Below, one piece after another: positions 6,407 to 39,157 of a DNA stretch of 39,344 nt (its first letter is position 1; each line of letters starts with the position of its first letter). Source of the DNA: a virus; the UHGV virus genome UHGV-0031292; one strand, 5' to 3'. The translations under genes were made by a program, and so were the position numbers. The notes beneath the pieces are model-generated. The model saw nothing but the letters and a program-made list of their open reading frames with translations. It was not told where the DNA came from and searched no databases.

Positions 6407-6486
6407 TAAAAAACCAAATCTGGTTGATCTTTTTTTTGTGTCAGCACAAAATAACCGTAATCCCAATACTAATAACAGGGCTTACC

Positions 6487-6687
6487 ATGGAAATCATTAC
6501 ACGTATTGATGCCGCAAAGCGCGGACTTAAACGCTACTACACCGGAAAACCATGTAAGCACGGACATGACAGTGAACGCTGGGTTTACAACGGACACTGT
6601 GTTGAGTGCACCATGGAATCAAACCGTCGCATCAGGGCAGAGATTAAGCAGATCATGATTAATTCCTCCCCACAACATTCAAGCTGA
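6487..6687 (+). CDS. Small hypothetical protein with a putative Cys/His zinc-binding motif
   Basis: Likely start MEIITRID; motif KPCKHGH...NGHCVEC. Confidence 0.45.
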   Translation: MEIITRIDAAKRGLKRYYTGKPCKHGHDSERWVYNGHCVECTMESNRRIRAEIKQIMINSSPQHSS

Positions 6688-12450: not shown

Positions 12451-13922
12451 CAGATACAGCGTTATCTCCTGAAGAGCAGTTGATCGAGGATATTGCAGGG
12501 TTCACTCACGATCCGCTTGGCTATGCCCTCTATGCGTTCCCGTGGGGGGAAGAGGGGACTGAACTGGCACATGCCACCGGCCCACGTCAGTGGCAGGCTG
12601 ATGCGTTCCGAGAGATACGTGATCACCTGCAGAATCCAGAGACGCGCTATCAGCCGCTTATGCTGGCACGCGCTTCTGGTCACGGTATTGGTAAATCCGC
12701 ATTCATCTCAATGCTGATCAACTGGGGCATGTCCACTTGCGAGGATTGTAAGGTCGTGGTGACCGCCAACACCGACAACCAGCTACGAACGAAGACCTGG
12801 CCGGAAATTATCAAGTGGTCGAACCTTGCTATCACGAAAGACTGGTTTACCTGTACCGCTACCGCGATGTACAGCAATGATCCTGGACACGACAAGCGGT
12901 GGCGAGCTGACGCAATACCCTGGTCTGAGCACAACACTGAGGCATTCGCCGGACTACACAACGAGCGCAAACGCATCATCGTGGTATTCGATGAAGCGTC
13001 GAACATTGCGGATCTGGTGTGGGAAGTTGCCGAGGGTGCGCTAACGGACGAAGACACTGAGATTATCTGGGTGGCGTTCGGAAACCCGACGCGTAATACC
13101 GGACGTTTCCGCGAATGTTTCCGCAAATATAAACACCGCTGGAAAACTGCGCAGATTGACAGCCGGACGGTGGAAGGCACCAACAAACAGCAGTTGCAGA
13201 AATGGGTTGATGACTACGGGGAAGACAGCGACTTCGTTAAAATCCGTGTGCGCGGCATATTCCCTGATGCATCTGAATTGCAGTTTATCCCTACCGGTCT
13301 TACTGACGAGGCAATGAAACGGGTGGTAACTGCTGCGCAGGTGGCACATGCTCCGGTGATAATCGGCGTTGACCCTGCATACTCCGGTGTTGATGACGCG
13401 GTGATATACCTGCGGCAGGGGCTGCACAGTAAGGTGCTGTGGACCGGCAACAAGACCACTGACGATCTGATTATGGCAAAGCGTATCGCTGACTTTGAAG
13501 ACCAGTATCAGGCTGACGCGGTGTTCATCGACTTCGGTTACGGTACCGGGCTGAAGTCAATCGGTGACGGTTGGGGGCGCACATGGCAACTTGTTCCGTT
13601 CGGTGGCGCGTCTACTGACCCGCAGATGCTCAACAAGCGTGGGGAGATGTTCAACTCATGCAAGACATGGCTGAGGCTGGGCGGCATGCTGGATGACCAG
13701 GAAACAGCGGACGACCTGTCGGCGGCAGAGTACAAAGTTCGAGTGGACGGTAAAATCGTTATCGAACCGAAGGAAGATATCAAGGAGCGGCTTGGGCGTT
13801 CGCCGGGTAAAGGCGATGCGCTACTGCTGACGTTTGCTTTCCCGGTGTCAAAGCGCCTGCGACTTCCCGGGCAGCAGAACCAGCAAGGCAAGGCGCTTAC
13901 CGAGTACGATCCATATGCTTAG
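12447..13922 (+). CDS. Terminase large subunit (ATPase/nuclease)
   Basis: 491-aa ORF with P-loop-like SGHGIGKS and DEAS (Walker B-like) motifs; GTG start overlapping upstream stop. Confidence 0.8.
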   Translation: MTDTALSPEEQLIEDIAGFTHDPLGYALYAFPWGEEGTELAHATGPRQWQADAFREIRDHLQNPETRYQPLMLARASGHGIGKSAFISMLINWGMSTCEDCKVVVTANTDNQLRTKTWPEIIKWSNLAITKDWFTCTATAMYSNDPGHDKRWRADAIPWSEHNTEAFAGLHNERKRIIVVFDEASNIADLVWEVAEGALTDEDTEIIWVAFGNPTRNTGRFRECFRKYKHRWKTAQIDSRTVEGTNKQQLQKWVDDYGEDSDFVKIRVRGIFPDASELQFIPTGLTDEAMKRVVTAAQVAHAPVIIGVDPAYSGVDDAVIYLRQGLHSKVLWTGNKTTDDLIMAKRIADFEDQYQADAVFIDFGYGTGLKSIGDGWGRTWQLVPFGGASTDPQMLNKRGEMFNSCKTWLRLGGMLDDQETADDLSAAEYKVRVDGKIVIEPKEDIKERLGRSPGKGDALLLTFAFPVSKRLRLPGQQNQQGKALTEYDPYA

Positions 13923-14737
13923 TCTTTATTTTTATCCTCGAAACCTGATAATCCAGATAGAACACCAAAGTTATTAAAAACGTTTGGCTTACCAGATTTT
14001 AATCCGGATAAGTTGTGTTGCTCCAAAAAGTTGCTAATTGTTTGGCCGTTGCCAAGTGCAAGGCTTTTTATTTGAGATTTTTCAGGGTATTTGAGTTTGT
14101 ATTCGTCGAAATCATTTTGGAGGGTCTTATATGCCTCATTCATTCTTCCAAGAGTTTCCGATATCTCTTTTAATGAATGATTTAGAGCTGCTAACTGAGC
14201 ACTGGCGGATCTCAATTCGTCATCTTTAGCTTTCAACTCGGCAGTCAATTCCCCCATACTATTCTTTGATCGAATAATCTCTTCTTTCATCTCTTGGATG
14301 TCTTTTTCCGCGCCAGTCTTAACTTTGTCGTATGTAACATCTTTTTTAGCCAATAACCTCTGCAGTCTTGTTTCACGCTGGATTTTTCTTGCCTTCAGGT
14401 GATTTTCGATTGAGTCATTATTATCAAGAGGCTTTGCTTGCCATACGTTAATGATATTGTTTACCCATGGTAATAGGCAGCAGATAGCAATTACAGATAA
14501 GCATGGATAAAACATAACAGTTTTCCATGTGCTGTTATCTGAGATATATGAAATTTTATCTATTATGTTTGATTTGCTAAAAAATAGATAAAGAATTGAT
14601 TTCCAGTTGAAGGCGCACCAGGACATAACAAAAGCACCAAGCACAGGGTTTTTGGCTCTATTCACGGCAGTATTGGCAGTAGATAAAAACAGCTCTTTAA
14701 ACGATTCAAACATGCTAATTACCTTGAAGTTTTTCAT
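13919..14737 (-). CDS. AT-rich moron: membrane protein (2 predicted TM helices) with long C-terminal coiled coil; candidate superinfection-exclusion or abortive-infection factor
   Basis: Opposite strand to flanking late genes; low GC; hydrophobic N-terminus; heptad-rich C-terminus; start taken as MKNFKV (internal ATG). Confidence 0.55.
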   Translation of the reverse strand: MKNFKVISMFESFKELFLSTANTAVNRAKNPVLGAFVMSWCAFNWKSILYLFFSKSNIIDKISYISDNSTWKTVMFYPCLSVIAICCLLPWVNNIINVWQAKPLDNNDSIENHLKARKIQRETRLQRLLAKKDVTYDKVKTGAEKDIQEMKEEIIRSKNSMGELTAELKAKDDELRSASAQLAALNHSLKEISETLGRMNEAYKTLQNDFDEYKLKYPEKSQIKSLALGNGQTISNFLEQHNLSGLKSGKPNVFNNFGVLSGLSGFEDKNKD

Positions 14738-14741
14738 GATT

Positions 14742-14756
14742 ATACCTTTAAGGTAA
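14742..14756. promoter_or_regulatory. Palindrome copy (variant ATACCTTTAAGGTAA) a few bp upstream of the moron start, overlapping a TATAAT on the minus strand
   Basis: Matches xxACC-N5-GGTAA; minus strand reads ...TTACCTTAAAGGTATAATCATG. Confidence 0.45.
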
Positions 14757-14772
14757 TTTGCGGTCATCAAGC

Positions 14773-14959: not shown

Positions 14960-15036
14960 CTGGCGTGGCATGCAGGATTCGAACCTGCGACCAACCGCTT
15001 AGAAGGCGGTTGCTCTGTCCGACTGAGCTAATGCCA
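14960..15036 (-). tRNA. tRNA-Arg, anticodon UCU (decodes AGA)
   Basis: Minus-strand 77-nt sequence GTGGCATTAGCTCAGTCGGACAGAGCAACCGCCTTCTAAGCGGTTGGTCGCAGGTTCGAATCCTGCATGCCACGCCA folds as a cloverleaf (7-bp acceptor stem, CTTCTAA anticodon loop, GGTTCGAATCC T-arm, encoded CCA). Confidence 0.85.
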
Positions 15037-15359
15037 CAACGCTGAGAGCACTTAGCCTGTTAAGGCGCCACACTTTGTCGCGGCTCCATAAATGCTCTCA
15101 TCGTTGTACCCTCGTCTCTTCCGAGGCGTCACACCGAATCGCCGGGATGGTGAATCCCCGTGCGCGGAATAAAACCGCTCGACTTGCACATTCCGGCTAC
15201 CTGGTTCGTTTGCTCGAGCAAGGGAGGGTGCCCCTTAAACGTATCCAGACCGCTATCGGCGCATGTGCCATACGCCGTACTGCTCAAAATAAAAGCTCAC
15301 TCCTCCTGTTCAATTTAACGACAAGCCAGTCAGGTTAATAACCGGAATGAACTCTTTGC

Positions 15360-15685: not shown

Positions 15686-17365
15686 ATGGCGGAAACAACT
15701 AAAGAGCGATTGAACAAACAGTTCGCACAACTTGAAAGCGAGCGTCAATCGTTCGAGCCGCACTGGCGCGAGTTGAGTGATTACATCAACCCGCGTGGTT
15801 CCCGCTTTCTGACTTCTGAGGTCAACCGTAACGATCGACGCAATACACGCATTATTGATTCGACCGGGACTATGGCGGCGCGCACTCTCGCCAGCGGCAT
15901 GATGTCAGGCATCACAAGCCCCGCGCGTCCGTGGTTTCGCCTGGCTACGCCAGATCCTGAAATGATGGATTATGGCCCTGTTAAGTTGTGGCTTGAGGCG
16001 GTGCAGAACCGCATGAACGATATGTTCAATAAGTCGAATCTCTATCAGTCGCTGCCGCAGTTATACGGAAGCCTCGGCACATACAGCACTGGTGCAATGG
16101 CGGTGCTGGAGGATGACGAGGACATTATTCGCACAATGCCATTCCCGATAGGCAGTTACTACCTGGCTAACTCACCTCGTGGCAGTGTGGACACCTGTTT
16201 TCGCAAGTTCTCTATGACTGTTCGTCAGCTTGTTCAGGAGTTCGGGCTAAATAACGTCAGCGAATCCGTAAAAAGCATGTGGGAAAGCGGCACCTACGAG
16301 AAGTGGATCGAAGTGATGCATTCGGTTTACCCGAACATTGACCGCGATACATCGAAGCTGGATAGCAAGAACAAGCCATTCAAATCGGTTTATTACGAGG
16401 TTGGTGGCGATAACGACAAGTTGTTGCGTGAGTCCGGATTCGATGAGTTTCCAATTATGGCTCCGCGCTGGGAAGTTAATGGCGAAGATGTTTATGGATC
16501 ATCATGCCCGGGTATGCTGGCGCTTGGACCTGTTAAGGCATTGCAGCTTCTCCAGAAGCGCAAGTCGCAGTTGATTGATAAAGCCACCAATCCGCCGATG
16601 GTTGCTCCGACTTCCCTCAAGAATCAGCGTGCCTCCCTTCTTCCTGGCGACATCACGTATATCGATCAGATTACTGGTCAGGATGGCTTCAGGCCTGCTT
16701 ATCTGGTTAACCCCAGTACAGCAGATTTGGTGGCAGACATTCAGGACACTCGTCAAATCATTAACAGCGCCTACTTCGTCGATCTGTTCATGATGTTGCA
16801 GAACATCAATACCCGCTCAATGCCTGTTGAAGCGGTGATCGAAATGAAAGAAGAAAAGCTTCTGATGTTGGGGCCGGTTCTGGAGCGTCTGAACGACGAA
16901 TGTCTTAATCCTCTCATTGACCGCGCTTTCTCGATGATGGTGCGTAAAAACATGCTGCCGCCACCGCCTGACGCGATGGAAGGCATGCCCCTGAAGGTCG
17001 AATACATTTCCGTCATGGCTCAGGCGCAGAAGTCTATCGGCCTGTCCAGTCTGGCGTCCACGGTTAACTTCATTGGTCAACTTGCGCAAGCGAAACCAGA
17101 AGCTCTCGACAAACTCAACGTTGATCAGGCGATCGATGCATTCGCTGATATGTCCGGAGTGTCTCCAACCGTCATTGTTCCGCAGGAACAGGTTGAGCAG
17201 GCTCGCCAACAACGGGCACAGCAGCAACAGCAGCAACAAATGATGGCGATGGGGATGGCGGCGGCACAGGGTGCCAAGACGCTAAGCGAAGCTAAAACTT
17301 CGGATCCGAGTGTTTTGTCAGCTATGGCGAATGCAGTTAGTGGTCAGGGTGGGCAATCACAATGA
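15686..17365 (+). CDS. Portal (head-to-tail connector) protein, podovirus type
   Basis: 559-aa ORF after terminase and before scaffold/capsid; CCGGAG ribosome-binding site. Confidence 0.8.
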   Translation: MAETTKERLNKQFAQLESERQSFEPHWRELSDYINPRGSRFLTSEVNRNDRRNTRIIDSTGTMAARTLASGMMSGITSPARPWFRLATPDPEMMDYGPVKLWLEAVQNRMNDMFNKSNLYQSLPQLYGSLGTYSTGAMAVLEDDEDIIRTMPFPIGSYYLANSPRGSVDTCFRKFSMTVRQLVQEFGLNNVSESVKSMWESGTYEKWIEVMHSVYPNIDRDTSKLDSKNKPFKSVYYEVGGDNDKLLRESGFDEFPIMAPRWEVNGEDVYGSSCPGMLALGPVKALQLLQKRKSQLIDKATNPPMVAPTSLKNQRASLLPGDITYIDQITGQDGFRPAYLVNPSTADLVADIQDTRQIINSAYFVDLFMMLQNINTRSMPVEAVIEMKEEKLLMLGPVLERLNDECLNPLIDRAFSMMVRKNMLPPPPDAMEGMPLKVEYISVMAQAQKSIGLSSLASTVNFIGQLAQAKPEALDKLNVDQAIDAFADMSGVSPTVIVPQEQVEQARQQRAQQQQQQQMMAMGMAAAQGAKTLSEAKTSDPSVLSAMANAVSGQGGQSQ

Positions 17366-32214: not shown

Positions 32215-32739
32215 TTACCAAAACTTGTACCACGGGGATTTATCCTTCAATGGACAATCCTTCCATCGTGTGGCCAACCATTCATATTCTTTAAAATATG
32301 TGTTTATGTTTTCTTTTTCTCTAATGGCTTGTATAAGAGGTAGCGCAATCTGATAGTTATTTACAACGGAGCTGTAAAATACTTCCTTAATCATGGTCTC
32401 ATCATAAGTTTTCCGCTTCACGCTCACAGCCATGCGTTCGTAGAAACCTAGACAGTAAATTATTTCTCTCTTCTCTGTCTTTTCTTCATCCGTAAGATCA
32501 GCCTGCCCATTGCTTGGATACATATAAGAGCGGAATGATTTGTTCGATTCGTGAATGCGGCGCATAGTAGATAGGCCTTTCTTATAATCTACATCAAACC
32601 TGCTTTCACCAAGGAATACTGAAGTGTGTACTTTTCTCGCTGTATTTACATTATAAATAATAGTAGCGATAGCTATGAACAAGCCAAGCGAAACCGCGAC
32701 TGCACTTACGATTTGAGCCACAGCCATGGCAAATTGCAT
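32215..32739 (-). CDS. Membrane-anchored protein of unknown function (N-terminal TM helix plus about 140-aa soluble domain), AT-rich accessory gene
   Basis: 179-aa ORF (GTG at 32754 or ATG MQFAMAV); single N-terminal hydrophobic helix; low GC. Confidence 0.5.
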   Translation of the reverse strand: MQFAMAVAQIVSAVAVSLGLFIAIATIIYNVNTARKVHTSVFLGESRFDVDYKKGLSTMRRIHESNKSFRSYMYPSNGQADLTDEEKTEKREIIYCLGFYERMAVSVKRKTYDETMIKEVFYSSVVNNYQIALPLIQAIREKENINTYFKEYEWLATRWKDCPLKDKSPWYKFW

Positions 32740-32772
32740 TTCTTCACTTAACACAAACTGTCTCCAGACATG

Positions 32773-32963: not shown

Positions 32964-33689
32964 TCAGAAGAACCCTGCTTTGTCGTTGATGTACTCCGCG
33001 TGCGTCTGGATATCACGCAGGCATTTGCTCACACCGACGATGTAGCAGAACATGGTGGTCAGCTCCGCCGCCGCGCCCGATACGTCGTGCCCGTCGTCCT
33101 GTAACTGGTTCAGCAGATTCATCAGCAGTGAGTTCTCCGTCAGGCCGAGAACACCAGACGGAGAATGAATCAGACTGCGGTAGCCGGGCTTCAGTGGGGC
33201 GCTGTAGGTTTTGTTCTCTATCTTCATTGCCTGCATCACTGCTGATGCTGTGGCGTTGGCTACCTGGTCGGCAACCATCTTTATGCGTTCTTCCTGCGGG
33301 AGCGAGTTTTTAATGTAACTTCCGGTGCGGCGGATCTGAGGAAGAACCTCACCTGTAACCCATTTACGAAAGCGGTAGGGGATAGTGCCTGGTGTCACTG
33401 CGTCGCGGCAGCGGAGGATCAGTGTGTAGAGGCCTGACTCGGAGATGATGTTGATCTCTTTTACTCGGCTGTCAAAAATCGCACGATGTTCATGCCCTAT
33501 GTTGAACATAGACCTTTCATCATCATCCAGTTTTTCAAGTGCTTGGGTGACGTTTTGGATACGCAGCGCACTACAAACGTCTTGGGCTACAAACCATGGT
33601 TGGCCATCGATAATGATGGAACGGATAGGGTTAACAGATTCAAATTTGAAGATGGCAGTTTGAGCATTAGCCATGGTGGTTATCTCCAC
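32964..33689 (-). CDS. Bro-N (KilA-N-like) domain antirepressor
   Basis: 241-aa ORF with N-terminal Bro-N-like segment (FESVNPIRSIIIDGQPWFVAQDVCSALRIQN); C-terminal region paralogous to the 33990 gene. Confidence 0.7.
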   Translation of the reverse strand: MEITTMANAQTAIFKFESVNPIRSIIIDGQPWFVAQDVCSALRIQNVTQALEKLDDDERSMFNIGHEHRAIFDSRVKEINIISESGLYTLILRCRDAVTPGTIPYRFRKWVTGEVLPQIRRTGSYIKNSLPQEERIKMVADQVANATASAVMQAMKIENKTYSAPLKPGYRSLIHSPSGVLGLTENSLLMNLLNQLQDDGHDVSGAAAELTTMFCYIVGVSKCLRDIQTHAEYINDKAGFF

Positions 33690-33989: not shown

Positions 33990-34247
33990 TTATCTGGTTT
34001 GTTTTCGTAATTGTTCGACACAATAGTCGAGATGTGTTTGCAGATCCTGCATAGTCATCTGTGAGCTGGTGACGTAGTTAATCAGTGCAGTCAGTTCGGC
34101 AAGTGGGCCATCGACATTAAATCCATCCTTATCGAGATCCCGGAGTAATTTCATCAAGTGCGATCCCTCCACCAGTGACCTGACGCCTCCCGGCGTGTGA
34201 ATCCTTTCGGTAAATCCGTCTTCCAGTGGATAGTGATACCGCTGCAT
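33990..34247 (-). CDS. Small antirepressor-like protein (about 85 aa), paralogous to the C-terminal domain of the Bro-N antirepressor; putatively LexA-controlled
   Basis: First ATG (MQRYHY) preceded by GGAG; shared motif H(T/S)PxGV..L.E.S.LM.LL..L..DG..V.G...ELT.....V...........LQTH..Y with 32964-33689; LexA box about 22 bp upstream. Confidence 0.55.
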   Translation of the reverse strand: MQRYHYPLEDGFTERIHTPGGVRSLVEGSHLMKLLRDLDKDGFNVDGPLAELTALINYVTSSQMTMQDLQTHLDYCVEQLRKQTR

Positions 34248-34268
34248 CTTATCTTCTCCATGCAATAA

Positions 34269-34442: not shown

Positions 34443-36890
34443 ATGACGGTATCAACCGAAGTTGACCACAACGAATACACCGGTAACGGTGTTACAACGG
34501 CATTCCCTTATACCTTCAGGATTTTCCAGAAATCTGATTTAGTAGTGCAGGTTGTTGACCTGAACGAGAACATCACAGAGCTGATTCTTGATACTGATTA
34601 CATAGTCACTGGTGCTGGAGGGTATAACGGCGGCAATGTAATTCTGTCGAAGGCGTTGGCTAACGGTTATCAGATTTCTATATCAAGAGAGCTACCGGTT
34701 ACGCAGGATACCGATCTGCGCAACCAGGGTAAGTTCTTCGCTGAGGTGCATGAAGACGCATTCGATAAACTGACGATGCTGATACAGCAGGTTAGAAGTT
34801 GGTTTAGGTTGGCTCTGCGTAAACCATCATTTATTGCTAATTATTATGATGCCTTGAACAATTATATTCGCAATCTTCGTGACCCGTCACGGCCTCAAGA
34901 TGCAGCCACAAAAAATTATGTTGATAACTTATCAGTAACGAATTCAAACAGGGCTATACGAGTACCTGAACCATTTATATCATCGCTTCCTGATATTGAT
35001 GGTAGAAAAAACAAATCATTAAGCTTTGATAACGCAGGGGAACCATTGCTTTTAGATCCTGCTCAAAGCGGATTATGGGGTTATGTTCTGATTGATTCGT
35101 TTCAACTTGGAGCGAATATAACGACTAGATTCCAGGCACTACACTGGTCTTTACCTGATGGTAATGGTGAGTATTATCGTTGGGATGGAGAACTCCCAAA
35201 AATAGTTATGCCCGGTTCAACGCCAGATAGTTCTGGGGGCATTGGTCCTGGGGCTTGGTTGAGCGTTGGTGATGCTACACTACGATCCATGCTTTCATCA
35301 TGGAAAGGTTATTCATTTATAGATAATGGGAATCTTTCTTTATACAAAAAGAAAGGCTTGTTCGGTGACGCAGGGGAAGTTGAAACCTCATATGATGTTG
35401 TACAGCATTCTGATGGTTTCTGGTATAAATACACCGGAAGTCTGCCTTTTACTTATGGGGCAGCACCTGATTCCTTATGGGTAAATGTTGGTAATCTTAC
35501 CGGTTTTCCTGAGAATTCCCCGGAAAACTTTGGAGCTATTCCAGGGGTTGAAACATCTGATTGCCTACCCGCAATTAAATTGGCTATTTTAACTGGAACT
35601 CTACGACTAACCCCTGGAGAGACATATTATGTTTCTGATGAGGTTATCATCCCGTCTAACCTTATAATGTTTACAAACTCTGCAACAATTAAAGCGATGC
35701 CATCAGTAACATGGACGGGTAAAGCTGTCGTTAGGGCTAGCAAAAAGCCAGTAGGAACATCCCCGGACCTTTCATTGCCTGAACAACAAGTTCGTGGAAT
35801 TAGGCACATTGGTACATTAAATATTGATGCTAACAATGTTGCGCCTTACGGTTTTTATGGTTTTGGTGTAGTTGCAGAATCTGTCACAGACATTATATAT
35901 GCTTATAATGCCACAGAACTTGGAATTGTACTTCTTGGGAGTTGGTATCATAAAGTAAATCAATATATGGCAATTGATTGTGCAAGAGGTGTCTCTTTGG
36001 CGCATGGTTTCTCCGGTGAAACCGGAGATGTAAACGTTAATGGTGTTGAATTTGGTGTCGTCGCTGCGTATAACACATCAAAATCTTTGTCCTATGGGTA
36101 TGATCCGTATTCATCATCTTTAACCCCACAGCTCATAGGTGCCGGTGTCACTCTCGGGCAAGGATTGGCATCAAGAATAGGAACATTAATAGCTGAAACC
36201 ACAGCAGGCGCTGGTTTAGCTACTGTTAACGCTGTTAGTTGGTCTGTTGGTTCTATGTACTTTGAAAAATGCAGTGAAGCGCTTGAAGATAGTGCAGAGC
36301 CTGATATTGCGATATTATCAACTACAGGAAATGTCGAGGACCACGTATTTGACGTCGGTAATATCCATTTTGGCATAGGGACTGGTATACTGCAAAGAGC
36401 AACGGCAAGTGAGTTTCTCAACATCCAATCCATATACCGTATAGACAATAAAAAAACATGGCATAGTTCCTCAAAGGCGTCTTCAAGTTTTGTAAATTTC
36501 GTAAACTATTACGTTCTCAACCCTTATGATTACGTTAAACCGGTTCAACTGACTAATGACGTAGGCAAGGATGTTATAAGTTCATCGGCAATGCTTAACT
36601 TTAAGGATTTTTCAAATACGCCAAATATCCCATTTTTTTATACTGGCGGTGATCTTGATATTAATATAAGCATATCAGATGGTTCGATTATTGGGCTTGG
36701 TATTCAGGTTCAGTCTGAAGATGGAATTGAATATATAACATGCACATCATCACCGTTTTCAGCAAAGCTAACAAAAAGGAGAAATGCTTATTCTGTTTAT
36801 TGGGTATCAATGGGAACTCCAGTTCAAGAAGCTACTGGCATGGGGGCGATTATAATAACAAAACAAAAAACTTCTCAATGGCTTCGTTAG
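34443..36890 (+). CDS. Tailspike protein (conserved N-terminal virion-attachment region, AT-rich variable C-terminal receptor-binding domain)
   Basis: 815-aa ORF at the end of the virion module; composition shifts to AT-rich from about 34.8 kb. Confidence 0.7.
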   Translation: MTVSTEVDHNEYTGNGVTTAFPYTFRIFQKSDLVVQVVDLNENITELILDTDYIVTGAGGYNGGNVILSKALANGYQISISRELPVTQDTDLRNQGKFFAEVHEDAFDKLTMLIQQVRSWFRLALRKPSFIANYYDALNNYIRNLRDPSRPQDAATKNYVDNLSVTNSNRAIRVPEPFISSLPDIDGRKNKSLSFDNAGEPLLLDPAQSGLWGYVLIDSFQLGANITTRFQALHWSLPDGNGEYYRWDGELPKIVMPGSTPDSSGGIGPGAWLSVGDATLRSMLSSWKGYSFIDNGNLSLYKKKGLFGDAGEVETSYDVVQHSDGFWYKYTGSLPFTYGAAPDSLWVNVGNLTGFPENSPENFGAIPGVETSDCLPAIKLAILTGTLRLTPGETYYVSDEVIIPSNLIMFTNSATIKAMPSVTWTGKAVVRASKKPVGTSPDLSLPEQQVRGIRHIGTLNIDANNVAPYGFYGFGVVAESVTDIIYAYNATELGIVLLGSWYHKVNQYMAIDCARGVSLAHGFSGETGDVNVNGVEFGVVAAYNTSKSLSYGYDPYSSSLTPQLIGAGVTLGQGLASRIGTLIAETTAGAGLATVNAVSWSVGSMYFEKCSEALEDSAEPDIAILSTTGNVEDHVFDVGNIHFGIGTGILQRATASEFLNIQSIYRIDNKKTWHSSSKASSSFVNFVNYYVLNPYDYVKPVQLTNDVGKDVISSSAMLNFKDFSNTPNIPFFYTGGDLDINISISDGSIIGLGIQVQSEDGIEYITCTSSPFSAKLTKRRNAYSVYWVSMGTPVQEATGMGAIIITKQKTSQWLR

Positions 36891-36893
36891 ATA

Positions 36894-37085
36894 ATGGCTT
36901 TATATAATGAAGCTATAATTATTTACGTTATAAGACATGATGTTTTGCATGGTAACCAATATTGGTTGTCTGGAGATGTATGGGGGCTAGTCTACAATAT
37001 AATCAGTCCTGATAATGCAAATTACAGTTACATGTATAAAAGGCCTAGCGGTAAAATAACATTATTCAACACATTTACACCATAA
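36894..37085 (+). CDS. Small AT-rich hypothetical ORF after the tailspike (doubtful)
   Basis: 63-aa ORF, no clear ribosome-binding site; followed by terminator. Confidence 0.2.
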   Translation: MALYNEAIIIYVIRHDVLHGNQYWLSGDVWGLVYNIISPDNANYSYMYKRPSGKITLFNTFTP

Positions 37086-37090
37086 AGTAC

Positions 37091-37128
37091 AAAGCGCCAT
37101 CTATATTATTGTAGATGGTGCTTTTAAT
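37091..37128 (+). terminator. Intrinsic terminator after the tailspike region (GCGCCATCTA...TAGATGGTGC plus T-run)
   Basis: Inverted repeat followed by TTTTAATTTT. Confidence 0.5.
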
Positions 37129-37241
37129 TTTATCTGTTTTTTTCGATATCAATTATTATATTTCAATTAAATAAATTACATAGCACATAAGTAACTTATA
37201 GCTTATAAAAATACGTTAGTTTTTAGAATGATAAGATTTAT

Positions 37242-37256
37242 CACCTTTAGGGTAAT
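37242..37256. promoter_or_regulatory. Palindrome copy (variant TCACCTTTAGGGTAA) upstream of the lysis cassette; promoter-like module with CCATATATGGTTT at 37288-37300
   Basis: Matches xxACC-N5-GGTAA; downstream element as in the portal and tailspike copies. Confidence 0.5.
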
Positions 37257-37359
37257 TTATGTATTGTCATGGTTAGGTAGTTAGATCCATATATGGTTTA
37301 TTGTGTATGATGAACTCACCAACTAAGGGGGTGTTAATGCACAGTAAACGGTGGTTGAT

Positions 37360-37764
37360 ATGTCAGCTCATCTAACCAGTGAGTCTTTAAATCAGTGGCT
37401 TAGCATGGGTTCTCTGGCTGCGGTCATTGCCGGGGTTCCTCCAGAGGTCGCTCTTGGTGCTTTATCCGGCGCGGTAATATTTATTACCTCTGCCGTTGAG
37501 TATCCAATACGCCGTCGAGTTCTCCTGTCGATGCTCAGCTTTCTCTGCGGGCTACTCTTCTACAAACCGACTGCATCAATTCTTATCGGCGTAGCCAGCC
37601 TGATCCCAACTATCACGCAGGACTCATTCGAGAAAGGGATCGTCTTTTCTGCTGGCGCGTTCGTGTCGGCAATCGTCGCAGTACGTATTGGAATCTGGCT
37701 CTATCACCGCTCAGATAATCCACGCGATTTAATCCCGGGGAGAAAAGACGATGACAACTCATGA
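37360..37764 (+). CDS. Holin (multi-pass membrane protein)
   Basis: Start MSAHLTSE; about 134 aa with several hydrophobic helices and charged C-terminus; first gene of lysis cassette. Confidence 0.6.
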   Translation: MSAHLTSESLNQWLSMGSLAAVIAGVPPEVALGALSGAVIFITSAVEYPIRRRVLLSMLSFLCGLLFYKPTASILIGVASLIPTITQDSFEKGIVFSAGAFVSAIVAVRIGIWLYHRSDNPRDLIPGRKDDDNS

Positions 37765-38059
37765 GCTGCTTTTACTTATTGCCAATGCAGTTATTTGTAC
37801 TGGCATAGCAATTCGCGTTGTCACATTCCGGCGTAACGGCTCTCAACATCGAAGATGGGGAGGGTGGCTTGCTTATTTCCTTATTGTTGCTGCGGCCAGT
37901 ATTCCTGTTCGTGTCGTCTATGCAATCTGGTTACGCACGCCAATGGCTGTGGATTTATCTGAGGTCATTATCAACGCTGTCATGCTTGCCGCTGTTATTA
38001 AAACACGCGGTAATGTTGTTCAGATTTTCAAAATATCGAGGTCTAAACATGGAGATTAA
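37751..38059 (+). CDS. Second small membrane protein of the lysis cassette (holin or antiholin-like)
   Basis: 102-aa ORF, 2-3 hydrophobic helices, overlaps neighbours. Confidence 0.5.
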
Positions 38060-38678
38060 ACAATTCCAGCGAGCTGCTGGTATCAGCGAGTCGCTTGCCG
38101 CACGCTGGTTCTTGCATATAACTTCTGCGATGAAAGAGTTTGGTATCAGCAACACCGAAAATCAGGCAATGTTTATTGCCCAGGTCGGGCATGAGTCTGG
38201 TGGCTTCACCCGGTTGCAGGAGAATTTCAACTACAGCGTTACCGGACTGGCGAGCTTTGTCAGGACTGGACGCCTCACCCAGGGACAGGCTAATGCACTG
38301 GGGCGCCGTGCTGGTGAACCACCATTGCCACTCGAGCGCCAGCGCGCGATCGCAAATCTGGTGTACAGCAAACGCATGGGTAACAATGCTCCTGGTGATG
38401 GCTGGAATTACCGTGGGCGCGGGCTTATCCAGATTACCGGTTTGAATAACTATCGTGACTGCGGAAACGGCTTGAAAGTGGACCTGCTGGAGAATCCTGA
38501 ACTGCTGGCGCAGGATGAATATGCGGCTCGTAGTGCGGCGTGGTTTTTTGCCAGCAAAGGCTGCATGAAGTATACCGGCGATATTGCACGTGTAACTCTG
38601 ATTATCAATGGTGGCAGTAACGGCATAGACGACCGGCGTGCGCGGTACATCACAGCAAGTAAGGTACTGGCGGTATGA
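38049..38678 (+). CDS. Endolysin, glycoside hydrolase family 19-like (chitinase-type lysozyme)
   Basis: Start MEIKQFQ after GAGG; conserved [12 protein letters not shown] and GRGLIQITG motifs. Confidence 0.8.
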
Positions 38679-39157
38679 TCTGGGCATTCGTAAAAGAATA
38701 CTGGAAACAGTTGATTATCATGGCGGTGCTTGCTGTTCTGGTCATATCAGGAGTTGTTGCCTGGAATGTACACGGCAGCCGTCAGTACGACACCGGGTAT
38801 GCGCAGGCGGAAGAAGACCGCAAAGCCGAAGAAGAAAAAGTTCGTCAGTACTACGAACAGGAGAAAGTGACTAATGAACGTGAAGCGCAGCAGAGGATCG
38901 ACCAGGCGCACAATGATGCTCTTGATGCTGCTGCTCGCGCTGGCAGGTTGCAGCAACAGCTCGTTGCCATCCGTGAGCAGCTCAGGCAGTATAACGCCAT
39001 TGTCGGCGCTGGGACGTCAGCCGCAGACACCGGAATTTTGCTTGCCGACGTGCTCAGCAAATCTCTCGAGAGAAACAGACAACTGGCAGAGTATGCTGAC
39101 CGGGCAGCCGAAGCCGGAAGAGTCTGCGAAAAACAGTACGACACCCTGACCAGATAG
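38675..39157 (+). CDS. i-spanin (Rz-like): N-terminal TM anchor plus coiled-coil periplasmic domain
   Basis: 160-aa ORF overlapping the endolysin stop; N-terminal hydrophobic helix then charged coiled-coil sequence. Confidence 0.7.
38874..39149 (+). CDS. o-spanin (Rz1-like) lipoprotein embedded in the +1 frame of the i-spanin gene
   Basis: Signal peptide with lipobox (LLLALAGCS), Pro/Ser-rich mature part, entirely within 38675-39157. Confidence 0.6.
   Translation: MNVKRSRGSTRRTMMLLMLLLALAGCSNSSLPSVSSSGSITPLSALGRQPQTPEFCLPTCSANLSRETDNWQSMLTGQPKPEESAKNSTTP

What the first reader, a model, noticed from the sequence alone, without database searches (positions are those of the whole stretch)
34443..36890. 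Mosaic tailspike with AT-rich receptor-binding module
The first 120-150 codons have core-genome-like composition, then the gene becomes markedly AT-rich through its end and the following small ORF and terminator (to about 37130). This pattern indicates a horizontally exchanged receptor-binding/depolymerase domain and hence the host-range determinant of this prophage.
Basis: partly seen in the sequence, partly recalled or inferred. Interest (0 to 1): 0.5.

Follow-up and report, generated by a model that had tools for sequence, protein, structure and literature searches.

The report
Mosaic prophage tailspike, swapped receptor-binding module
The tailspike gene of this epsilon15/phiV10-like E. coli prophage joins a common particle-attachment end to a rare, AT-rich sugar-cutting beta-helix module shared with unrelated phages and probably aimed at the O21 surface antigen; this is a clear but ordinary case of a well-known phage swapping mechanism.

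Summary
ORF 34443-36890 (815 aa) is intact. Its third-codon-position GC falls from 0.52 to 0.28 at codon ~125 (permutation p<1/2000). That is 3.7 SD below the other 40 ORFs in the window.

The composition break is a real recombination joint:
- Codons 1-121 are 98.9% identical to other E. coli Uetakevirus prophages. This anchor occurs in 500 of 5,426 complete E. coli genomes.
- Codons 138-434 are 99.3% identical to a Salmonella prophage tailspike.
- Codons 436-815 plus 68 bp are ~99% identical to a P22-like prophage tailspike in E. coli T43.

The module occurs in only 2 of 5,426 genomes, and both carry the O21 O-antigen cluster (chance ~4e-5). O21 specificity is therefore predicted but untested.

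The downstream 63-aa ORF is most likely a relic of a Kuttervirus tailspike 3' end. A strong terminator follows it.

This is a new member of a well-known kind, of modest interest.

The parts
34443..34807 (+). Tailspike codons 1-121: N-terminal particle-binding (anchor) segment with prophage-like composition (GC3 0.51).
   Evidence: Only 4 mismatches to the UMNK88 prophage over 34443-34807. 77-87% nt identity to epsilon15 and phiV10 tailspike 5' ends. PDB sequence match of aa 1-128 to the Dpo31 tailspike N-terminus, E 4e-24. Present in 500 of 5,426 E. coli genomes, fused to varied C-termini.
34808..34854 (+). Left recombination junction zone (codons 122-137). The GC3 change point falls here.
   Evidence: Dense mismatches to UMNK88 and A357 begin at 34808, and dense mismatches to Salmonella L009 end at 34854. 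GC3 change point at codon 125, support 112-130.
34855..35743 (+). Codons 138-434: shaft/neck with the conserved DAATKNYVD motif, the Tail_spike_N domain, a small domain and the first coils of the beta-helix. This segment is shared almost identically with a Salmonella enterica prophage tailspike.
   Evidence: 6 mismatches in 889 nt against L009, dS 0.024, whereas codons 1-120 have dS 1.1 and codons 436-815 are saturated.
35154..35273 (+). Pfam PF18668 Tail_spike_N (TSP1/gp66 N-terminal domain), aa 238-277. A conserved block shared with Kuttervirus and other virulent-phage tailspikes.
   Evidence: Pfam E 3e-16. PDB sequence hits to CBA120 TSP1, TSP3 and TSP4 and others at aa 207-293. 73.7% nt identity to the ST-W77 tailspike at 35175-35287. 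UP17 homology starts at 35170 and DEC9B-type homology ends at 35189.
35748..36890 (+). Codons 436-815: distal beta-helix plus C-terminal beta-sandwich domain, the specificity-determining part. Shared almost identically with a P22-like prophage tailspike in E. coli T43.
36891..36958 (+). 3' flank that travels with the module. It includes the first 21 codons of the small ORF.
   Evidence: 97.5% identity to the sequence just downstream of the T43 tailspike stop. Homology ends at 36958.
36894..37085 (+). 63-aa ORF in the same frame as the tailspike. Residues 17-62 are a relic of the last 49 codons of a Kuttervirus 'haemolysin-type calcium-binding' tailspike gene and keep its stop position.
   Evidence: phrog_34776 positions 984-1012 of 1013, E 5e-9. 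tblastn gives 55% aa identity, E 7e-8, to 27 Ackermannviridae records. 85.9% nt identity over 36995-37079 to ST-W77. No Pfam or PADLOC hit. Not annotated in CE0021a. The ORF is not conserved in T43.
37091..37124 (+). Intrinsic terminator hairpin closing the tailspike transcription unit.
   Evidence: 15-bp stem followed by a T-rich tail. dG -25 kcal/mol, z -7.5, 0 of 200 shuffles as stable.
37125..37238 (.). Very AT-rich spacer (about 0.28 GC) unique to this tailspike cassette. It occupies the slot where relatives carry O-antigen-modification genes.
   Evidence: Homology with other Uetakevirus prophages and phiV10 resumes only at 37215-37287. phiV10 has oac here and DEC9B has gtrA plus a glycosyltransferase fragment. 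No ORF of 40 aa or more on either strand.

Best explanation
ORF 34443-36890 is the single tailspike (receptor-binding protein) of an integrated epsilon15/phiV10-like podovirus (genus Uetakevirus).

It is a recombinant made of at least three segments:
- A genus-conserved N-terminal anchor (codons 1-121) that fixes the trimer to the tail.
- A neck and proximal beta-helix segment (codons ~138-434).
- A distal beta-helix plus C-terminal domain (codons ~436-815).

The last two segments form an AT-rich receptor-binding cassette. It circulates by homologous and illegitimate recombination among temperate podoviruses (Uetakevirus, P22-like) and virulent myo-, sipho- and T7-like phages.

By analogy with solved beta-helix tailspikes, the trimer would bind the host O-antigen along the helix and cleave it, carrying the virion down to the outer membrane. 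The target is most likely E. coli O21 O-antigen.

The cassette was installed by replacing an earlier receptor-binding end. A 49-codon relic of that end, of Kuttervirus tailspike type, with its stop codon and a terminator, survives downstream.

Shown here: the composition break, the junctions, near-identical segments in other phage lineages, purifying selection, the predicted beta-helix fold, and co-occurrence with O21. Inferred: trimerisation, enzymatic cleavage, O21 specificity, and the order and direction of transfers.
For: Genome context: Bro-N gene, small ORF, tailspike, two holins, GH19 endolysin and Rz/Rz1, colinear with phiV10 and with E. coli prophages.

Composition: GC3 falls from 0.52 to 0.28 at codon 125, p<1/2000; z = -3.7 against the other ORFs.

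Junctions and patchwork dS values:
- UMNK88: 98.9% identity up to 34807.
- Salmonella L009: dS 0.024 for codons 138-434, against 1.1 for codons 1-120 and saturation for codons 436-815.
- T43 P22-like tailspike: dS 0.023 for codons 436-815, against 1.7 for codons 389-435.
- dN/dS is 0.06-0.2 throughout.

Distribution:
- The anchor is in 500 of 5,426 E. coli genomes and the module in 2 of 5,426.
- Module homologues carry five different N-terminal contexts. These are 815-aa Uetakevirus type, 650-aa PF09008 P22 type, 688-aa Phapecoctavirus UP17, 661-aa on ~44-kb siphovirus contigs and 666-aa PF03906 T7-like type.

O21 link:
- Both module-bearing genomes carry wzx and wzy annotated as 'O21 family'.
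- They carry the module in different prophage genera at different loci (yfgI and argW).
- O21 wzy is in only 35 of 5,426 genomes, so the hypergeometric chance is about 4e-5.

Composition of likely donors: the module's GC3 (~0.30) matches Phapecoctavirus UP17 flanking genes (0.24-0.32) and a Kuttervirus tailspike (0.31). Phapecoctavirus genome GC is 39.1% (PMC7862966).

Prior knowledge: RBD exchange among these same genera is documented (PMC10408124).
Against: - No enzymatic or binding data exist for this module or any close homologue. All are annotated 'hypothetical' or 'tail spike'.
- No Pfam catalytic family matches aa 300-815. The beta-helix fold alone does not distinguish hydrolase, lyase, or binding only.
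- The O21 inference rests on two genomes that share several identical housekeeping protein accessions near the rfb locus, such as wzzB and ugd. They may therefore be related strains. The host of the window itself is unknown.
- Only a monomer was modelled. Foldseek TM-scores are low (0.2-0.36) because of multi-domain geometry.
- The direction and order of the transfers cannot be determined.
Confidence: 0.85

Rival explanations
1. The AT-richness is not a sign of exchange. It reflects amino-acid composition, codon-usage selection or local mutation bias within a vertically inherited gene.
For: Total GC drops only from 0.458 to 0.402. Other Uetakevirus tailspikes also show lower GC3 after about codon 120, so the pattern could be a property of the gene class.
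Against: The shift is at synonymous sites: GC3 0.52 to 0.28, while GC1 and GC2 do not fall. It coincides within a few codons with an abrupt identity break to the closest relatives. The AT-rich part has copies with dS about 0.02 in a P22-like prophage and a Salmonella prophage whose other segments are saturated.
Confidence: 0.03
2. The module is a real exchanged receptor-binding domain, but it does not target or cleave O21 O-antigen. It might recognise another surface glycan (capsule, colanic acid, ECA or a different O type), or bind without catalysis.
For: No catalytic family or residues were identified. Pas et al. report RBP subtypes found across several serogroups (PMC10408124). Only two genomes support O21 and they may be related. 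Phapecoctaviruses carry other glycan-degrading proteins nearby, for example a 'colanic acid-degrading protein' in UP17.
Against: 2 of 2 module-bearing genomes are O21 against a 0.65% background. The module is carried there by two different prophage genera. Homologues with 70% identity in the distal helix occur in Salmonella, and E. coli O21 has a closely related Salmonella counterpart, O38 (Li et al. 2011, cited in PMC7685785). Uetakevirus and Lederbergvirus tailspikes characterised so far are O-antigen specific (PMC10408124).
Confidence: 0.25
3. The 63-aa ORF (36894-37085) is a functional gene, for example a tailspike chaperone, a small lysis or immunity factor, or a C-terminal extension added by read-through of the in-frame TAG. 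On this reading it is not a relic.
For: It is an intact ORF in the same frame as the tailspike and begins 4 nt after its stop. It is called as a gene on several metagenomic contigs. It is conserved at 99% in CE0021a.
Against: Its only similarity is to the extreme C-terminus of a 1013-aa Kuttervirus tailspike, in that gene's frame and ending at that gene's stop. There is no Shine-Dalgarno-like sequence upstream. PGAP does not annotate it in CE0021a. In T43 the homologous sequence diverges after codon 21 into a different short ORF. The Salmonella relative lacks it entirely, with a 167-bp intergenic region. GC3 is 0.28 with no codon-position structure (0.34/0.33/0.28).
Confidence: 0.1

Closest known systems
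Tailspikes of Uetakevirus phages epsilon15 (gp20) and phiV10 (gp25)
   Same: Same genomic slot, upstream of the holin/endolysin/Rz cassette and downstream of the Bro-N gene and a small ORF. The N-terminal particle-binding domain is homologous: 77-87% nt identity over the first ~160 codons. The overall plan of anchor, flexible neck and beta-helix body matches that described for gp20 (bioRxiv 10.64898/2026.07.31.742079).
   Different: There is no detectable similarity beyond about codon 161. This protein is 815 aa, against 1070 for epsilon15 and 875 for phiV10. It lacks the epsilon15 petal/esterase domain. No O-antigen-modifying gene follows it, whereas phiV10 has oac.
P22-like (Lederbergvirus-type) prophage tailspike of E. 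coli T43 (WP_343365146.1)
   Same: Codons 436-815 plus 68 bp of 3' flank are about 99% identical at the nucleotide level (dS 0.023). Both hosts of the closest copies carry the O21 gene cluster.
   Different: The N-terminus is the P22 head-binding domain (PF09008) instead of the Uetakevirus anchor. The prophage sits at argW rather than at yfgI. Sequence upstream of codon ~436 is diverged (dS 1.7) or unrelated.
Tail spike of Phapecoctavirus vB_EcoM_UP17 (CAA7332709.1) and Dompiswa phage TSP7_1
   Same: 77% aa identity over aa 213-815, with the same C-terminal end (...QWLR). 92% nt identity over 35591-36652. Composition is similar (GC3 about 0.3).
   Different: A virulent ~150-kb myovirus with a different 87-aa N-terminus. 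The last 78 codons are strongly diverged (pS 0.75). Its receptor is uncharacterised in the papers found.
Kuttervirus CBA120 TSP1-4 and other solved beta-helix depolymerase tailspikes (Sf6, HK620, phi29 gp12)
   Different: Sequence identity in the helix is only 8-17%. No catalytic residues can be transferred. Those proteins belong to branched multi-tailspike complexes or to other anchors.
Modular RBP exchange framework of Pas et al. 2023 (PMC10408124)
   Same: An anchor + RBD architecture with horizontal transfer of RBDs across Uetake-, Lederberg-, Kutter-, Kaguna- and Kayfunaviruses. A prophage RBD predicts the host O serogroup.
   Different: That study lists no O21 subtype. It states that its conserved flanking DNA motifs are absent from Uetake- and Lederbergvirus prophages. 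Here a Uetakevirus tailspike carries the Kuttervirus-like PF18668 block exactly at one junction and a Kuttervirus tailspike 3' relic downstream. Whether these are the same motifs was not tested.

Membership tests
Uetakevirus (epsilon15/phiV10-like) tailspike | N-terminal particle-binding domain homologous to epsilon15 gp20 / phiV10 gp25 | tested here: met
   Megablast gives 87% identity to phiV10 and 77.7% to epsilon15 over the 5' end. PHROG tail families match aa 1-285 at E down to 1e-150.
Uetakevirus (epsilon15/phiV10-like) tailspike | Conserved genome position: after the Bro-N gene and a small ORF, before the two holins, GH19 endolysin and Rz/Rz1, in a ~39-kb integrase-bearing prophage | tested here: met
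   Pfam and PHROG assignments of neighbours. Colinearity with phiV10 and E. coli prophages.
Uetakevirus (epsilon15/phiV10-like) tailspike | Homotrimer that binds and cleaves host O-antigen | not testable with these tools
   Only a monomer model was made. No biochemical data exist.
Right-handed parallel beta-helix (pectin-lyase-like) phage depolymerase | Beta-helix fold of the central domain | tested here: met
Right-handed parallel beta-helix (pectin-lyase-like) phage depolymerase | Identifiable catalytic acidic residues in a substrate groove | tested here: inconclusive
   Invariant acidic residues among 24 homologues are E400, E479, E526 and D668 in protein numbering. Their spatial arrangement could not be examined, and no Pfam catalytic family matches.
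PF18668 Tail_spike_N (TSP1/gp66 N-terminal domain) | Match above the Pfam gathering score | tested here: met
   59.7 bits against a cut-off of 25, E 3e-16, aa 238-277. Only profile positions 31-70 of 70 are matched.
O21-specific RBP subtype (proposed, not an established family) | Module restricted to hosts with the O21 O-antigen gene cluster | tested here: met
   2 of 2 module-bearing complete genomes carry O21 wzx and wzy, against 35 of 5,426 overall. The sample is small and the window's own host is unknown.
O21-specific RBP subtype (proposed, not an established family) | Binding or cleavage of O21 polysaccharide | not testable with these tools
   Requires purified protein and LPS.
Functional small gene downstream of the tailspike (chaperone, immunity or O-antigen modification) | Family match, or conservation as an ORF among relatives | tested here: not met
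   No Pfam or PADLOC hit. The only similarity is to a tailspike C-terminus. The ORF is not conserved in T43 or the Salmonella relative.

The most novel reading that the evidence does not exclude
The C-terminal cassette may define a previously undescribed receptor-binding-domain subtype specific for E. coli O21, with diverged Salmonella versions possibly aimed at the related O38 antigen. It is shared by at least five phage lineages, both temperate and virulent.

Two features suggest that temperate Uetakeviruses draw on the same recombination handles as virulent phages:
- The Kuttervirus-type Tail_spike_N block sits exactly at one junction.
- A Kuttervirus tailspike 3' relic lies downstream.

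This would differ from the report that such motifs are absent from prophages (PMC10408124).
Probability: 0.5. Interest if true: 0.4.

Novelty: new member of a known kind. Interest (0 to 1): 0.3.

Why it matters
Tailspike receptor-binding modules set phage host range at serogroup resolution. They are used for phage and tailocin retargeting, serotyping reagents and prophage-based serogroup prediction.

This locus gives a cleanly resolved three-parent mosaic with base-pair-level junctions. It also gives a candidate O21-specific module, a serogroup for which no tailspike subtype appeared in the survey consulted. Finally, it shows direct sequence evidence (dS about 0.02) of very recent module sharing between E. 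coli and Salmonella prophages, and between Uetakevirus and P22-like prophages.

The mechanism itself, modular RBD exchange, is well established, so the value is incremental.

Tried and rejected
- Pfam on the whole protein found only PF18668. No catalytic family matched aa 300-815.
- Sequence search of solved structures matched only the N-terminal anchor and the Tail_spike_N region, not the helix.
- I tried to locate catalytic residues in 3D, but model coordinates are not exposed to scripts.
- Literature on UP17, TSP7_1 and strain CE0021a gave no receptor or serotype data.
- I searched 36880-37245 for relics of O-antigen-modification genes or other elements. Only the Kuttervirus tailspike relic and the T43 flank were found.
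- PADLOC on the small ORF and two low-GC ORFs gave nothing meaningful.
- I considered that the in-frame small ORF means the tailspike is truncated by a nonsense mutation. I rejected this because UP17, T43 and the Salmonella homologues all end at the same ...QWLR stop.
- I first took the homology end at 34924 (codon 161, from BLAST extents) as the junction. Fine-scale mismatch maps moved it to 34808 (codon 122) for the closest relatives.
Full report
**1. What is there**

The window is a complete integrated podovirus of the epsilon15/phiV10 type (genus Uetakevirus).
- A tyrosine integrase lies at 268-1518 and a portal at 15686-17365.
- At the right end come a Bro-N antirepressor-like gene (32964-33689, minus strand), a small ORF, the 815-aa ORF 34443-36890, two holins, a GH19 endolysin and Rz/Rz1.
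- The same order is found in phiV10 and in E. coli prophages.
- In E. coli CE0021a, the only complete genome with the whole region at 98% identity, the prophage abuts yfgI/yfgH.

**2. The observation**

- Total GC drops modestly, from 0.458 to 0.402. The change is concentrated at third codon positions, from 0.52 to 0.28.
- A Bernoulli change-point model puts the break at codon 125 (support 112-130). The likelihood-ratio statistic is 27, and none of 2000 permutations reached it.
- Against the other 40 ORFs of the window (GC3 0.499 +/- 0.059), the N-terminal part is typical (z = +0.2). The remainder is the most extreme coding sequence in the window (z = -3.7).
- The low-GC run extends from the gene through to about 37650. 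The lowest 1-kb windows of the whole 39 kb lie at 36.2-37.5 kb.

**3. The break is a recombination joint, and there are several**

Position-by-position comparison gave the following:
- Against the closest Uetakevirus prophages (UMNK88, A357) there are 4 mismatches in 34443-34807. Dense mismatches follow from 34808 (codon 122).
- Against a Salmonella enterica Uetakevirus-like prophage (P0022, locus L009), mismatches are dense up to 34854. There are then 6 mismatches in 889 nt (34855-35743), and they become dense again from 35744.
- Against the tailspike of a P22-like prophage in E. coli T43, mismatches are dense up to about 35747. The sequences are then about 99% identical to 36958, which is 68 bp past the stop codon.

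Synonymous divergence makes the patchwork explicit:

| Comparison | Segment | dS |
|---|---|---|
| Salmonella L009 | codons 1-120 | 1.1 |
| Salmonella L009 | codons 138-434 | 0.024 |
| Salmonella L009 | codons 436-815 | saturated |
| T43 | codons 389-435 | 1.7 |
| T43 | codons 436-815 | 0.023 |

- dN/dS is 0.06-0.2 everywhere, so the gene is under purifying selection and is not decaying.
- Even the near-identical CE0021a copy differs by a 300-bp patch (35700-36000) holding 50 of its 75 mismatches. This indicates conversion between module alleles.
- On the right, homology with other Uetakevirus genomes resumes at 37215-37287, just upstream of the holin gene.

**4. Distribution**

- The anchor (codons 1-121) is found in 500 of 5,426 complete E. 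coli genomes. It is fused to C-termini annotated as beta-helix proteins, SGNH hydrolases, endosialidases and others.
- The region 34926-36890 is found in 2 of those genomes.
- A protein search with aa 295-815 found the module behind five kinds of N-terminus:
  - 815-aa Uetakevirus type, in E. coli and Salmonella.
  - 650-aa with the P22 head-binding domain PF09008.
  - 688-aa in Phapecoctavirus UP17.
  - 661-aa proteins on ~44-kb contigs. Their gene content (tail tube, tape-measure chaperones, DNA polymerase A) is that of a siphovirus.
  - 666-aa T7-type proteins with PF03906, at 41% identity, for example phage TM1.
- UP17 is 77% identical over aa 213-815 and ends with the same residues. The stop codon at 36888-36890 is therefore native.
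- The module's GC3 (~0.30) equals that of neighbouring UP17 genes (0.24-0.32) and of a Kuttervirus tailspike (0.31). Phapecoctavirus genomes have 39.1% GC (PMC7862966).
- The composition therefore fits a gene pool maintained largely in AT-rich virulent phages. This is an inference, and the direction of transfer is not established.

**5. Fold**

An AlphaFold2 model of aa 200-815 was built with a 24-sequence alignment. Mean pLDDT is 81.9, and it exceeds 90 through the central 300 residues.
- Foldseek against the PDB returns only phage tailspikes and depolymerases at the top: CBA120 TSP4, TSP3 and TSP1, K2-2 TSP, Sf6 and HK620.
- The body is thus a right-handed parallel beta-helix followed by a small beta-rich C-terminal domain.
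- Upstream lie the PF18668 Tail_spike_N block (aa 238-277) and the anchor. The first 128 residues of the anchor match the Dpo31 tailspike N-terminus.
- Invariant acidic residues among homologues are E400, E479, E526 and D668. I could not place them in space, so hydrolase, lyase and pure binding remain open.

**6. Likely receptor**

The two complete genomes with the module carry it in different prophage genera at different loci: a Uetakevirus at yfgI in CE0021a, and a P22-like phage at argW in T43.
- I located their O-antigen clusters next to the his operon. Both have wzx and wzy annotated 'O21 family', with an identical Wzy accession.
- O21 wzy occurs in 35 of 5,426 genomes, one of them named O21:H9. 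Two of two by chance is about 4e-5.
- The strains share some identical proteins at this locus and may be related, but the phages are independent.
- E. coli O21 has a closely related Salmonella counterpart, O38 (Li et al. 2011, as cited in PMC7685785). This would fit the Salmonella homologues, whose distal helix is about 70% identical. That link is untested.
- The survey of E. coli tailspike subtypes by Pas et al. lists no O21 subtype.

**7. The small ORF**

ORF 36894-37085 (63 aa) starts 4 nt after the tailspike stop, in the same frame.
- Its first 21 codons belong to the flank shared with T43. After that point T43 diverges into a different short ORF.
- Residues 17-62 match, in frame, the last 49 residues of a 1013-aa Kuttervirus tailspike ('haemolysin-type calcium binding') and end at the same stop position. 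Support: phrog E 5e-9; tblastn 55% aa; 86% nt over 85 bp.
- It has no ribosome-binding site and no codon-position GC structure.
- PGAP does not annotate it in CE0021a, and it is absent from the Salmonella relative.
- I read it as the stump of an earlier receptor-binding end, left when the present cassette recombined in upstream of it, in this lineage or in a donor. Probability of a functional gene: about 0.1.

**8. Comparison with what is known**

Modular tailspikes with exchanged receptor-binding domains are textbook for P22, Sf6 and HK620. They have been mapped across Uetake-, Lederberg-, Kutter-, Kaguna- and Kayfunaviruses (PMC10408124). The epsilon15 tailspike has the same plan of anchor, flexible neck and beta-helix (bioRxiv 10.64898/2026.07.31.742079). 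This gene is a new, uncharacterised member of that kind.

Two details are mildly unexpected:
- The Kuttervirus-like PF18668 block sits exactly where DEC9B-type homology ends (35189) and UP17 and ST-W77 homology begins (35170-35175).
- A Kuttervirus tailspike relic lies downstream.

Pas et al. state that their conserved flanking motifs are absent from Uetake- and Lederbergvirus prophages. I did not verify that these are the same motifs.

**9. Verdict**

The finding is ordinary in kind, but it is unusually well resolved and yields a testable O21 prediction. Novelty: new member of a known kind. Interest: 0.3.

Noticed in passing
window 36891-37350: There is no O-antigen-modifying gene between the tailspike and the holin. 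phiV10 carries oac here, and the DEC9B prophage carries gtrA plus a glycosyltransferase fragment. This prophage therefore probably does not seroconvert its host through this slot.
   Followed up: partly
window 35700-36000 vs L001 (CE0021a): 50 of the 75 mismatches between the window and its closest complete-genome relative cluster in 300 bp inside the beta-helix (aa ~444-510). In this patch CE0021a is closer to the Salmonella allele (88%) than to the window (80%), which indicates a gene-conversion patch.
   Followed up: partly
window 13919-14770 (-) and 14961-15037 (-): A 283-aa ORF with the lowest GC among long ORFs outside the tailspike (0.362). It has no Pfam match and only weak coiled-coil/SMC-like PADLOC hits (E 2.5e-5 and weaker). 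It lies next to a tRNA-Arg(TCT) gene. It looks like a moron of unknown function.
   Followed up: partly
window 32215-32754 (-): A DUF4760 protein (179 aa, GC 0.393) lies between the tail genes and the Bro-N gene. CE0021a, UMNK88 and DEC9B carry different genes in this slot (a 251-aa hypothetical, small hypotheticals, a YafO toxin), so it is a variable moron site.
   Followed up: no
window 33990-34265 (-) and 32964-33689 (-): The 91-aa ORF just upstream of the tailspike shares a domain (phrog_450 / phrog_15539) with the C-terminal third of the Bro-N antirepressor-like protein. This amounts to a partial duplication of that module.
   Followed up: no
window 36888-36896: The tailspike TAG stop is followed in the same frame by one codon and then the ATG of the 63-aa relic ORF. 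Read-through would add about 65 residues. There is no evidence that this happens, and homologues end at the same stop.
   Followed up: partly
window 37351-39157: The lysis cassette has two holin-family genes (PF16931, PF05449), a GH19 endolysin and Rz (DUF2514). An embedded Rz1 lipoprotein ORF at 38874-39149 carries a LAGC lipobox. Region 37215-37798 is 96.7% identical to the Salmonella prophage, although the tailspike anchors of the two differ by dS 1.1.
   Followed up: no
L009 (Salmonella enterica GCA_032301745.1) 6449-6615: The Salmonella relative replaces the window's 460-bp AT-rich relic and spacer with a 167-bp intergenic region. That region starts with a different GC-rich terminator (CCCCGCTTCGGCGGGG), nearly the same hairpin as downstream of the UP17 tail spike.
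   Followed up: no
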